A DNA stretch of 64,000 nucleotides from NCBI RefSeq assembly GCF_029227855.1, contig NZ_CP074356.1, one strand, 5' to 3'. Origin of the DNA: Escherichia coli (lineage in GTDB: Bacteria > Pseudomonadota > Gammaproteobacteria > Enterobacterales > Enterobacteriaceae). Shown one piece after another: positions 57,001-59,355 of this stretch (the first letter of the stretch is position 1; every line of letters starts with the position of its first letter). Made by a program: the position numbers.

Positions 57001-59355
57001 CGCCAGACCATCGAAGAATTACTGGCACTGGAATTGCTTTAACTGCGGTTAGTCGCTGGTTGCATGATGACTTGCCTCCAGCGACGGAGTTGACACTGAA
57101 TGGCGACGTACCAGCGTCGGACTAAAGACATTAGTGATTTCCGGGAGAGGGCGATTATCCGCCAGTGCCAAAGCCAGTTCGGCAGCCTGCGTCGCCATCG
57201 TCACGATTGGGTAACGCACGGTGGTCAGGCGCGGACGCACATAGCGTGACACCAGCACATCATCAAAGCCAATTAACGAAATCTCACCCGGTACATCAAT
57301 ACCATTATCATTGAGAACGCCCATCGCACCCGCCGCCATTGAATCGTTATAACAGGCTACCGCAGTGAAATTTCTGCCTCGTCCCAAAAGCTCGGTCATT
57401 GCCTGTTCGCCGCCGCTTTCGTCTGGTTCGCCAAATGTCACCAGCCGGTCATTGGCCGCAATACCACTTTCAGCAAGGGCATCGTAATACCCTTGCAGAC
57501 GATCTTCGGCGTCAGAAATAGAGTGGTTAGAACACAGATAACCAATGCGGGTATGACCTTGCTGAATTAAATGACGCGTTGCCAGCCAGGCACCGTAACG
57601 ATCGTCCAGAGCAATACAACGGTTTTCAAAGCCAGGCAGGATACGGTTGATCAGCACCATACCGGGCATTTGTTTCATTAATGAGGCTAAATCGGCATCC
57701 GGTATCATTTTGGCATGGACGACCAACGCAGCACAGCGATGGCGGATCAGTTGCTCAATAGCCTGACGCTCTTTTTGTTCGTTGTGGTAACCGTTGCCAA
57801 TCAATAAAAAATTACCAGTGTGATAAGCCACCTGTTCGACCGCTTTCACCATTGCACCGAAAAACGGATCGGAAACATCACCAACGACCAGACCGACCGT
57901 TTCAGTGGTCTGCTGCGCCAGCGCACGGGCGTTGGCGTTCGGGTGATAGCTAAGAGACTCCATTGCACTATGCACAGCAAGCCGTGAAGCTTCGCTGGCT
58001 TTGGGTGAATTATTAATGACGCGGGAAACGGTGGCGACTGAAACGCCTGCCAGTCGGGCTACATCCTTTATGGTCGCCATGAAAATACCTTAGTGGGTAA
58101 ACGCTTACATTCTTTCAGTGTTACGGAAAACGCCCGTTGGTTCAAGGGGTGGCGTGTTTTCATCGTGGGAATGTGAGCCAAACGCAAATAAGTAAGACAA
58201 AAAAAGAGATTGCAAACCTTTGGTTACACTTTGCGAAACGCTGTTGCGATTGACCGCTGGTGGCGTTTGGCTTCAGGTTGCTAAAGTGGTGATCCCAGAG
58301 GTATTGATAGGTGAAGTCAACTTCGGGTTGAGCACATGAATTACACCAGCCTGCGCAGATGCGCAGGTTTTTTTTTGCCGGTCATCAATCTGTAACAGTA
58401 ACCGACAATTTACACACCTCGTTGCATTTCCCTTCATTCCTTTGCGTTTTCTCGCTGGCGAAGAGTCGTCGTGCAGACCACAATCAAGATCCCAGAGGTA
58501 TTGATTGGTGAGATTATTCGGTACGCTCTTCGTACCCTGTCTCTTGCACCAACCTGCGCGGATGCGCAGGTTTTTTTTGTGCACAGAAAACCCCCAGCTA
58601 GGCTGGGGGTTCCGGAAAGCTTTCAGCTTTGAGCCAGTTATTAAAACCCCTTTTGATTTGTTAAAACACTTTGCGGTCTGGCAACTGCAAGTGTCAAACA
58701 AGAAATCAAAAGGGGGTCCCAATGGGGAACGAAAAGAGCTTAGCGCACACCCGATGGAACTGTAAATATCACATAGTTTTTGCGCCAAAATACCGAAGAC
58801 AGGTGTTCTACAGAGAGAAGCGTAGAGCAATAGGCAGTATTTTGAGAAAGCTGTGTGAGTGGAAAAGCGTACGGATTCTGGAAGCTGAATGCTGTGCAGA
58901 TCATATCCATATGCTTGTGGAGATCCCGCCCAAAATGAGCGTATCCGGGTTTATGGGATATCTGAAAGGGAAAAGCAGTCTGATGCTTTACGAGCAGTTT
59001 GGTGATTTGAAATTCAAATACAGGAACAGGGAGTTCTGGTGCAGAGGGTACTACGTCGATACAGTGGGTAAGAACACGGCGAAGATACAGGATTACATAA
59101 AGCACCAGCTTGAAGAGGATAAAATGGGAGAGCAGTTATCGATTCCCTATCCGGGCAGCCCGTTTACGGGCCGTAAGTAACGAAGTTGGATGCAAATGTC
59201 AGATCGTGTGCGCCTGTTAGGGCGCGGCTGGTAAGAGAGCCTTATAGGCGCATTTGAAAAACCTCCGGCTATGCCGGAGGATATTTATTCGCACCTAATT
59301 TACTGTCGCTCGCGTTCTTTATCTCGTGTAATCTCCCTCCATTCGCTTTTACTGA

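What the first reader, a model, noticed from the sequence alone, without database searches (positions are those of the whole stretch)
58586..59288. IS200-like element inserted directly downstream of the OmrA terminator and upstream of aas
Seen in sequence: a complete 152-aa HUH transposase (MGNEKSLAHTRWNCKYHIVFAPKYRRQVF…) is flanked by a left-end hairpin (CCCCCAGCTAGGCTGGGGG) starting ~8 nt after the OmrA T-tract and a right-end hairpin (CCTCCGGCTATGCCGGAGG) ~95 nt before the aas start. Established knowledge: E. coli K-12 has no IS200, and IS200 is a low-activity element useful as a strain marker. Inference: the insertion separates the sRNA genes from aas and could modify read-through or aas promoter context.
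Basis: partly seen in the sequence, partly recalled or inferred. Interest (0 to 1): 0.4.

Follow-up and report, generated by a model that had tools for sequence, protein, structure and literature searches.

The report
IS200C copy behind the OmrA terminator
This is an ordinary, intact copy of the known insertion sequence IS200C; it sits right behind the OmrA small-RNA terminator because this group of elements lands almost exclusively just after terminator hairpins.

Summary
It has a 152-aa HUH/Y1 transposase (Pfam Y1_Tnp 3.8e-38), both subterminal hairpins and the IS200 5'UTR/art200 region (Rfam STnc490, 144.6 bits).

Empty-site alleles, including a K-12 derivative, read T8|CGCACC. The element therefore lies exactly after the OmrA terminator T-tract, with no target duplication. 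OmrA and the 87 nt upstream of aas are untouched.

The position follows a rule. Of 118 distinct left flanks of IS200-group copies (Yersinia pestis IS1541, Vibrio and others), 109 are terminator-like, against 10 of 1180 random positions. In 42 of 5,426 complete E. coli genomes an IS200 lies in the galR-aas spacer, always in this orientation: 8 after the OmrA terminator and 34 apparently after the paralogous OmrB terminator (10 of the 34 read directly, including CFT073). Two IS variants occur at both sites, which implies at least four independent insertions.

No effect on aas or omrA expression is shown. The element's own terminators argue for insulation rather than read-through. The element and its terminator preference are already described, so interest is low.

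The parts
58579..59289 (+). Complete IS200C element, 711 bp. There are no terminal inverted repeats and no target duplication. The junctions have a 2-nt TT ambiguity, so it could equally be written 58577-59287.
   Evidence: Exact flank matching to the empty sites in TC_EC10 and MC4100. 100% identity to IS200C copies in CFT073 and others. Y. pestis copy L076 shows there is no duplication.
58589..58611 (.). Left-end subterminal hairpin (IS nt 11-33). In Salmonella IS200 this is described as a bidirectional Rho-independent terminator that blocks impinging transcription. It is presumably also the TnpA-binding hairpin.
   Evidence: Folds at -18.7 kcal/mol on + and -20.4 kcal/mol on -. The literature places it at nt 12-34 (PMC4513863).
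58647..58715 (+). [quoted passage not shown]
   Evidence: Fold -32.1 kcal/mol, z -4.9. Rfam STnc490 spans 58589-58712 at 144.6 bits. The literature places it at nt 69-138.
58641..58730 (-). Predicted art200 (STnc490) antisense sRNA, about 90 nt. It is complementary to the tnpA 5'UTR and first three codons and ends at a stem-loop followed by UUUUAAUAA.
   Evidence: Placed by analogy with Salmonella IS200 (PMC4513863). The minus-strand fold is -35.5 kcal/mol, z -5.5, with a U-rich tail. Transcription was not tested here.
58722..59180 (+). tnpA, a 152-aa Y1 HUH transposase (HUH motif in ADHIHML; catalytic Tyr in KIQDYIKHQ).
   Evidence: Pfam Y1_Tnp 3.8e-38. NCBIfam transpos_IS200 1.9e-43. PDB relatives: 2ec2 at 4e-23, ISHp608 TnpA 2a6m at 4e-19, and a further 'transposase' entry 2xm3 at 2e-16.
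59262..59289 (+). Right-end subterminal hairpin (59262-59280) plus the 9-nt tail ATATTTATT that ends the element. It looks like an intrinsic terminator on both strands.
   Evidence: Terminator scan on both strands. Folds -15.9 and -15.5 kcal/mol. The tail was invariant in all 49 copies checked.
58491..58578 (+). OmrA sRNA gene (88 nt). Its intrinsic terminator (hairpin 58551-58572, T-tract to 58578) is the target after which the IS inserted. The sequence is identical to K-12.
   Evidence: Rfam OmrA-B 96.6 bits. Alignment to the K-12 derivative. The 88-nt length matches PMC12692685.
58294..58375 (+). OmrB sRNA gene (82 nt). It is not interrupted here, but its paralogous terminator carries an IS200 in CFT073 and 9 other strains read directly, and probably in 34 E. 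coli genomes in all.
   Evidence: Rfam OmrA-B 86.1 bits. Junctions in CFT073, RIVM_C019217 and 8 others.
59290..59376 (+). The 87 nt between the IS right end and the aas start codon. This is the complete original OmrA-aas spacer, unchanged.
   Evidence: Identical to the empty-site alleles. No sigma-70 consensus promoter was found by the scan.

Best explanation
**What it is.** Window 58579-59289 is an intact copy of IS200C, a 711-bp member of the IS200 group of the IS200/IS605 family. It transposes as single-stranded DNA by the 'peel and paste' route, using a Y1 HUH transposase.

**Shown.**
- The element is inserted precisely after the T8 tract of the OmrA intrinsic terminator, with no target duplication.
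- OmrA and the whole 87-nt aas leader region are left intact.
- It carries the standard IS200 self-silencing apparatus: the left-end terminator hairpin, the Shine-Dalgarno-sequestering 5'UTR stem-loop and the art200 antisense region.

**Shown statistically.** IS200-group elements lie almost only directly 3' of a GC-rich hairpin followed by a T-rich tail ending in TT, on the same strand as their own top strand. The position behind OmrA therefore reflects this target preference. The paralogous OmrB terminator is hit in the same way in other E. coli lineages.

**Inferred.**
- The transposase probably recognises such terminators in single-stranded lagging-strand template DNA because they resemble the element's own right end (hairpin plus ATATTTATT).
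- The A-rich stretch GAAAA lies 5' of both IS hairpins. It probably acts as the guide that pairs with the T-rich cleavage site, as in IS608.
- The expected consequence for the host is near-neutral. The sRNA genes and aas are moved 711 bp apart and stay insulated from each other. The cell gains one more source of the art200 and 5'tnpA RNAs.
For: **Identity.** (family, HUH and Tyr). (STnc490, 144.6 bits). (100% identical copies; IS200C-like sequence at 80% coverage or more in 2063 of 5426 E. coli genomes). (RefSeq annotation of the same insertion in strain JNEC-KY178).

**Junctions.** (empty site T8|CGCACC in TC_EC10 and the K-12 derivative MC4100). (flank ending GCT while the right end still reads ATATTTATT, so there is no duplication).

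**Target preference.**
- One search lists the flanks.
- 103 of 118 flanks end in TT.
- 109 of 118 distinct flanks are terminator-like against 10 of 1180 random positions, and 8 of the 9 that fail the criterion still have a strong adjacent hairpin.

**Recurrence.**. There are 8 genomes with the IS after the OmrA terminator. 34 more give the split-match pattern of an insertion after the OmrB terminator, confirmed by sequence in the 10 inspected. All are in the same orientation. IS200C and a variant differing at 28-30 positions each occur at both sites. TB354 and EC291 share GalR and Aas alleles but differ in site.

**Right-end mimicry.** Y. pestis tandem copies have a new IS directly after the right end of another copy (L068, L069, L071, L115).

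**Strand.** GC skew of the window's + strand is +0.064 and positive in all 8-kb bins. That places the IS top strand on the lagging-strand template, as the family rule predicts.

**Regulatory anatomy.** It matches PMC4513863, and the folds agree. The preprint 10.1101/2025.07.22.666184 independently reports terminator-like sequences upstream of ISs, with the strongest signal for IS200/IS605.
Against: - No transposition, binding or cleavage experiment supports recognition of terminators by TnpA. Part of the pattern could come from survivorship, since insertions elsewhere are lost.
- The total T count across the junctions differs between strains: 8, 9 or 10 at the OmrA site and 9 or 10 at the OmrB site. 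This is unexplained. Homopolymer slippage, assembly error or imprecise right-end cleavage are all possible, so the number of independent events is only a lower bound.
- The aas promoter is not mapped, so an effect on aas cannot be excluded.
- The other 24 OmrB-type genomes were inferred from the BLAST span, not read.
- The lagging-strand assignment rests on GC skew of a 64-kb window that contains a horizontally acquired island.
Confidence: 0.85

Rival explanations
1. The position is not targeted. IS200 inserts at any short T-rich site, and only insertions in harmless places such as the spacer behind a terminator survive selection.
For: All copies analysed are survivors in natural genomes. Terminator-proximal spacers are plausibly neutral. 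IS200 has been recovered inside genes, for example hisD984 in Salmonella.
Against: The junction is fixed to the nucleotide. It lies 3-10 nt past the hairpin foot, on the T-tract strand only, in 109 of 118 flanks. Only 4.6% of random positions that follow TT meet a similar (stricter) criterion. Neutral intergenic DNA is far larger than these few nucleotides. The same two paralogous terminators were hit repeatedly in the same orientation.
Confidence: 0.12
2. The insertion is regulatory or adaptive. It changes aas-lplT expression by displacing upstream promoter elements or adding an outward promoter, or it alters OmrA termination and stability.
For: The IS replaces everything upstream of -87 relative to the aas ATG. 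No clear sigma-70 promoter was detected in the remaining 87 nt, so the real promoter could depend on upstream sequence. The sequence just downstream of the OmrA U-tract changes from CGCACC to GTGCAC.
Against: The OmrA gene, hairpin and T8 are identical to K-12. The IS ends carry terminator-like hairpins on both strands, and its own promoter is described as weak. The scan found no outward consensus promoter. The insertion is rare, in 8 of 5426 genomes, which gives no sign of selection.
Confidence: 0.1
3. The element is ancestral at this site and was precisely excised in K-12 and most other lineages, so the polymorphism reflects loss rather than gain.
For: IS200/IS605-family excision is precise and would regenerate exactly the empty site seen (family knowledge; start of the PMC5027513 abstract).
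Against: Only 42 of 5424 genomes that match the locus carry any IS in this spacer. The occupied genomes have different sites, junctions and IS variants and sit in different GalR/Aas allele backgrounds. That pattern fits several recent gains.
Confidence: 0.03

Closest known systems
IS200C, the E. coli member of the IS200 group of the IS200/IS605 family (name as used in RefSeq/PGAP annotation)
   Same: The transposase is identical to WP_000526135.1. The very same insertion is already present and annotated in strain JNEC-KY178.
   Different: Nothing detectable. Only the insertion site is strain-specific.
Salmonella IS200 (707 bp; Lam & Roth 1983; Beuzon & Casadesus; Ellis et al. 2015, PMC4513863)
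   Same: The layout matches: left-end terminator hairpin at nt 11-33 (12-34 in Salmonella), 5'UTR stem-loop at nt 69-137 (69-138 in Salmonella), the art200/STnc490 region, a single tnpA and a right-end hairpin.
   Different: It is 711 bp rather than 707 bp by empty-site comparison. Expression of art200 and 5'tnpA, and any trans targets such as invF in Salmonella, are untested in this E. coli.
IS1541 of Yersinia pestis
   Same: 88% nucleotide identity over the element. The left-end hairpin and the right-end tail ATATTTATT are identical. It shows the same habit of sitting directly after terminator-like hairpins. Odaert et al. 1998 proposed such stem-loops as insertion hot spots; this is from memory, as the paper is not held.
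   Different: The 10-nt left terminus differs (GTGCCCAGAA against GTGCACAGAA). Copy number is much higher, and Y. pestis has tandem head-to-tail copies.
IS608 / ISDra2 (IS200/IS605 family elements with solved TnpA structures)
   Same: The Y1 HUH transposase is homologous to ISHp608 TnpA (2a6m, 4e-19) and to a further PDB 'transposase' entry, 2xm3 (2e-16), which I take from memory to be ISDra2 TnpA. It also shares subterminal hairpins, the absence of inverted repeats and target duplication, insertion 3' of a short target, and the top strand lying on the lagging-strand template.
   Different: There is no tnpB. The target is not a unique tetra- or pentanucleotide such as TTAC or TTGAT, but a T-rich tail ending in TT behind a hairpin. 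Guide and cleavage-site pairing is inferred here, not shown.

Membership tests
IS200/IS605 family, IS200 group | Encodes a Y1 HUH transposase of about 150 aa with the HUH motif and one catalytic Tyr. | tested here: met
   Pfam Y1_Tnp 130.7 bits (cutoff 23). NCBIfam transpos_IS200 147.7 bits (cutoff 55). Aligned to PDB TnpA structures with DHIH and the Tyr-containing helix conserved.
IS200/IS605 family, IS200 group | Element of about 700 bp with tnpA as the only gene and no tnpB. | tested here: met
   The 711-bp insertion is defined by empty sites. The ORF list shows tnpA, a TTG-start extension of the same frame, and only antisense or out-of-frame ORFs that I judge spurious; their translations show no protein features, but none was searched.
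IS200/IS605 family, IS200 group | No terminal inverted repeats; different subterminal hairpins at the left and right ends. | tested here: met
   The ends GTGCACAGAA... and ...ATATTTATT are not inverted copies of each other. Hairpins are at nt 11-33 and 684-702.
IS200/IS605 family, IS200 group | Insertion without target-site duplication. | tested here: met
   Only a 2-nt TT ambiguity at the junction. Y. pestis copy L076 has a flank ending GCT with the right end unchanged.
IS200/IS605 family, IS200 group | Strand-specific insertion 3' of a short target, with the top strand on the lagging-strand template. | tested here: met
   103 of 118 left flanks end in TT, always on the top strand. The window's + strand has positive GC skew. 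The replication direction itself was not measured.
IS200/IS605 family, IS200 group | IS200-type left-end regulatory region: terminator hairpin, Shine-Dalgarno-sequestering 5'UTR stem-loop, art200/STnc490. | tested here: met
   Rfam RF01405 144.6 bits (gathering score 56). Folds. Coordinates agree with PMC4513863.
IS200/IS605 family, IS200 group | Mobility: identical copies at other genomic sites, and occupied versus empty alleles of this site. | tested here: met
   10,722 places in 3,096 genomes, up to 35 per genome. Empty alleles.
IS200/IS605 family, IS200 group | Transposition activity of this particular copy. | not testable with these tools
REP-associated tyrosine transposase (RAYT / TnpA-REP) | Match to the RAYT model above its cutoff, and association with REP arrays. 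| tested here: not met
   NCBIfam REP_Tyr_transpos scores 32.2 bits against a cutoff of 80. The element is a discrete multicopy IS, not a single-copy gene flanked by REPs.
OmrA-B sRNA family (neighbouring genes) | Match to Rfam RF00079 above the gathering score, with an intact terminator. | tested here: met
   96.6 and 86.1 bits (gathering score 40). The lengths of 88 and 82 nt match PMC12692685. The terminators were found by the scan.

The most novel reading that the evidence does not exclude
IS200-group transposases actively recognise intrinsic terminators (a GC-rich hairpin plus a T-rich tail of roughly 6-9 nt on the lagging-strand template) as mimics of the element's own right end. Every terminator would then be a potential safe landing pad, and the twin OmrA/OmrB terminators would be a recurrent hot spot, with at least four independent hits in E. 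coli. On this reading the target is a structure rather than a fixed tetranucleotide, unlike IS608 and ISDra2. It would also explain how a 'dormant' IS reaches 20-60 copies without killing genes.
Probability: 0.5. Interest if true: 0.45.

Novelty: already known. Interest (0 to 1): 0.2.

Why it matters
For this window it matters little. The element is a catalogued IS at a polymorphic site, and the same insertion is already annotated in a RefSeq genome. It can serve as a lineage marker: 8 of 5,426 complete E. coli genomes carry an IS200 behind OmrA, and 34 appear to carry one behind OmrB.

The wider point is that IS200-group elements sit almost without exception directly behind intrinsic terminators, in one orientation, across several genera. 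That is a clean example of structure-guided safe-site selection. It explains why these elements rarely disrupt genes. It also warns sRNA researchers that the 3' flanks of sRNA genes are favoured landing sites.

Tried and rejected
- **MAFFT alignment of occupied and empty sites.** It misplaced the large gap. I replaced it with exact left and right flank extension.
- **Strict perfect-stem hairpin detector.** It under-called terminators (77 of 118), because A-T extensions consumed the tail and bulged stems were missed. I replaced it with an RNAfold-based criterion and random controls.
- **Sigma-70 promoter scan of 58100-59500.** It found nothing, so the aas promoter and any outward IS promoter remain unassigned. 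Manual inspection gave only weak candidates, such as TGTAAT at 59327-59332 without a good -35.
- **Literature search for an aas-lplT promoter or for IS200 at omrA.** It gave nothing useful.
- **Odaert 1998 (IS1541 insertion sites) and Beuzon & Casadesus 1997.** Neither could be read because they are not held. What I say about them is from memory.
- **RAYT/REP transposase identity.** Considered and rejected.
- **Two-bp TT target duplication with a 709-bp IS.** Considered and rejected, because a copy whose flank ends in CT keeps the right end ATATTTATT.
- **Rfam sub-threshold hits Ysr202, sroD and Leu_leader.** I regard these as terminator or IS-end hairpin look-alikes, not genes.
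Full report

Yes. Window 58722-59180 (+) encodes the quoted 152-aa protein. It matches Pfam Y1_Tnp, "Transposase IS200 like", at E = 3.8e-38 over the full model. It matches NCBIfam transpos_IS200 at 147.7 bits against a cutoff of 55.

It aligns to solved IS200/IS605-family transposases: 2ec2 at 4e-23, ISHp608 TnpA 2a6m at 4e-19, and the entry 2xm3 (labelled only "transposase"; ISDra2 TnpA from memory) at 2e-16. The HUH motif (DHIH) and the Tyr-bearing C-terminal helix (KIQDYIKHQ) are conserved.

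Rfam places OmrB at 58294-58375 (82 nt) and OmrA at 58491-58578 (88 nt). So the sRNA next to the element is indeed OmrA. aas starts at 59377.

**2. Exact ends and target**

MAFFT misplaced the gap, so I extended exact matches from both flanks against two empty-site alleles. These were strain TC_EC10 and the K-12 derivative MC4100.

- The left flank matches through 58578, the last T of the OmrA T8 tract.
- The right flank matches from 59288.
- The two overlap by 2 nt (TT).

The insertion is therefore 711 bp, at 58579-59289, and the empty site reads ...GCGCAGGTTTTTTTT|CGCACC.

There is no real target duplication. A Y. pestis copy whose left flank ends in GCT still has the right end ATATTTATT.

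The left hairpin begins 12 nt after the T-tract, not 8 nt.

OmrA, its hairpin and its T8 are identical to K-12. The whole original 87-nt spacer upstream of the aas ATG is retained.

**3. What the element is**

- IS200C-like sequence at 80% coverage or more occurs in 2,063 of 5,426 complete E. coli genomes.
- There are up to 35 places per genome and 1,287 places on plasmids.
- The same insertion, 100% identical over 1,501 bp including both flanks, is already present and annotated in strain JNEC-KY178.
- In MC4100 the 1,501-bp query finds a single place, the empty omrAB-aas locus.

The internal anatomy matches Salmonella IS200 as described in PMC4513863:

| Feature | This element | Salmonella IS200 |
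|---|---|---|
| Left-end bidirectional terminator hairpin | IS nt 11-33 | nt 12-34 |
| Shine-Dalgarno-sequestering 5'UTR stem-loop | nt 69-137 (-32.1 kcal/mol, z -4.9) | nt 69-138 |

On the minus strand there is a stem-loop followed by UUUUAAUAA. This fits the 3' end of the roughly 90-nt antisense RNA art200, also called STnc490. Rfam STnc490 hits 58589-58712 at 144.6 bits.

**4. Why it sits exactly behind the OmrA terminator**

A scan of one genome per species for the exact 24-nt left-end hairpin returned 120 loci. In the 125 left junctions with readable flanks, counting the E. coli ones, nearly every copy is preceded by a GC-rich hairpin and a T-rich tail on the same strand. These include Y. 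pestis IS1541, Vibrio ruber, Brenneria, Edwardsiella and several metagenome-assembled genomes.

I quantified this on 118 distinct non-E. coli flanks.

- 103 flanks end in TT.
- 109 meet a terminator-like criterion, against 10 of 1,180 random positions from the same loci. The criterion was RNAfold MFE of -7 kcal/mol or lower, the last helix ending within 12 nt of the junction, and at least 5 T in the last 8 nt.
- 8 of the 9 flanks that fail still have a strong adjacent hairpin.
- A stricter detector gave 77 of 118, against 4.6% for random positions that follow TT.

The position behind OmrA is therefore what this IS group normally does.

This preference is not new. The preprint 10.1101/2025.07.22.666184 reports terminator-like sequences over-represented upstream of ISs, most strongly for IS200/IS605. 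From memory, Odaert et al. 1998 proposed terminator-like stem-loops as IS1541 hot spots; that paper is not held.

**5. The locus is a recurrent target in E. coli**

Forty-two of 5,426 genomes carry an IS200 in the galR-aas spacer.

- Eight give a single contiguous match across the OmrA junction.
- Thirty-four give a split match spanning about 946-950 bp.
- In all ten split cases I read, the IS lies directly after the T-tract of the OmrB terminator, in the same orientation. These include CFT073, RIVM_C019217, EC291, P15-25 and GTEN_97. The OmrB terminator is the near-identical paralogue of the OmrA one.

Both sites are occupied in some strains by IS200C. In others they hold a variant that differs at 28-30 of 702 compared positions. 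TB354 (OmrA site) and EC291 (OmrB site) share the same GalR and Aas protein alleles but differ in site. This implies at least four independent insertions.

Finer junction differences also exist:

- T8|, T7| and T6| on the left, with compensating extra T's on the right;
- one case with an extra ATTT at the left junction.

The summed T counts do not always equal the empty-site count. I cannot tell real variation from homopolymer slippage or assembly error, so I do not count these as separate events.

**6. Likely mechanism (inferred)**

In IS608, TnpA binds the subterminal hairpins in single-stranded DNA. It chooses cleavage and target sites by pairing them with a guide tetranucleotide 5' of the hairpin foot (family knowledge: Barabas et al. 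2008, cited).

- **Possible guide.** Here both hairpins are preceded by GAAAA (CACAGAAAA-CCCCC at the left end, TTTGAAAAA-CCTCC at the right end). The cleavage sites are T-rich: the flank ends in ...TT and the right end in ...TATT.
- **Right-end resemblance.** The right end is a GC hairpin followed by a 9-nt T-rich tail, which is what an intrinsic terminator looks like on the non-template strand.
- **Tandem copies.** In Y. pestis, four loci (three distinct sites) show a new IS1541 inserted exactly after the right end of another copy. This fits the idea that the right end and terminators look alike to the transposase.
- **Strand.** The window's + strand has positive GC skew in every 8-kb bin (+0.064 overall). 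The IS top strand therefore lies on the lagging-strand template, as the family's replication-coupled model predicts.

None of this has been tested biochemically for IS200. A contribution from survivorship cannot be excluded.

**7. Consequences for omrA and aas**

- **Shown.** OmrA is unchanged. The aas-proximal 87 nt are unchanged. The IS adds terminator-like hairpins at both ends, on both strands.
- **From the literature.** The left-end hairpin blocks impinging transcription, and the tnpA promoter is weak.
- **Inferred.** Read-through from omrA into aas should decrease if it changes at all. art200 should end inside the IS, about 60 nt from the left end, and should not run antisense into omrA.

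I could not locate the aas promoter. The scan found none and the literature search gave nothing. An effect through loss of upstream promoter context therefore remains possible but unsupported.

**8. Comparison with known systems and novelty**

This is a member of a named element, IS200C, and it meets every sequence-testable defining feature of the IS200 group (see the membership table). It is not a RAYT: it scores 32 bits against a cutoff of 80.

The element is already known. So are its regulatory RNAs, its absence from K-12 and, in outline, its terminator association. What this analysis adds is modest: nucleotide-level evidence for terminator targeting across genera, and recurrent, orientation-specific hits on the twin OmrA and OmrB terminators.

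Interest is 0.2. The most novel reading still open is that terminators are recognised as right-end mimics, so the target is a structure rather than a fixed sequence. I give this a probability of about 0.5 and moderate interest if true.

Noticed in passing
window 19693-48000: There is a low-GC block (34-44% against about 50% in the flanks) next to tRNA-Gly(CCC) at 19693-19766. It encodes type III secretion components: a FHIPEP/InvA-like protein at 25790-27850, an EscN-type ATPase at 27855-29135, a SpaS/YscU-like protein at 33125-34237 and PrgH/EprH at 35352-36542. From its map position and gene content this looks like the ETT2 island, apparently largely intact.
   Followed up: partly
L124 (CFT073) 733-1443; also L125 and L132-L139: In CFT073 and 9 other strains read directly (34 genomes by BLAST pattern), an IS200 sits directly after the OmrB terminator. 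That is between omrB and omrA, about 115 nt upstream of the omrA start. It could affect upstream elements of the omrA promoter in those strains.
   Followed up: partly
L126 (HCP5S3_I2) about 1050-1770; L129 (EFF60); L131 (E686); L135/L138: Junction micro-variation: an extra ATTT at the left junction in HCP5S3_I2, and T6|, T7| or T8| left junctions with more T's on the right than the empty site predicts. Possible causes are imprecise right-end cleavage, carried-over donor flank, homopolymer slippage or assembly error. It remains unexplained.
   Followed up: partly
L068, L069, L071, L115 (Yersinia pestis NCTC5923): Head-to-tail tandem IS1541 copies. The second copy starts immediately after the ATATTTATT right end of the first, with one extra T in L115. 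It looks as if the right end itself served as the target.
   Followed up: partly
L004-L025, L027, L030-L032, L036-L041, L043-L046, L062-L065: The exact 24-nt IS200 left-end hairpin occurs at or near contig ends of metagenome-assembled genomes labelled Oxalobacter, Peptococcaceae, Bacillota, Mailhella/Desulfovibrio, Saccharibacteria and Elusimicrobiaceae. Each taxon has its own 10-nt terminal variant and its own terminator-like flanks. This suggests real resident IS200 relatives with an extremely conserved hairpin, and shows that these repeats break assemblies. Mis-binning was not excluded.
   Followed up: no
window 58589-58712 (+): The Rfam STnc490 model matches the tnpA-sense strand and begins with the left-end terminator hairpin. 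The literature describes STnc490/art200 as the roughly 90-nt antisense RNA and places the tnpA transcription start near IS nt 40. The Rfam hit therefore marks the IS200 left end but not the strand or extent of either transcript.
   Followed up: partly
window 59257-59331 (-): There are sub-threshold Rfam hits to Yersinia Ysr202 (29 bits against a gathering score of 315) and sroD on the minus strand over the IS right-end hairpin. They are probably just the terminator-like hairpin, or an IS1541 end included in the Ysr202 model.
   Followed up: no
window 58273-58830 (-): A 185-aa TTG-start ORF runs antisense across omrB, omrA and the IS left end. It spans two sRNA genes and an insertion junction, so it is almost certainly spurious.
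   Followed up: no
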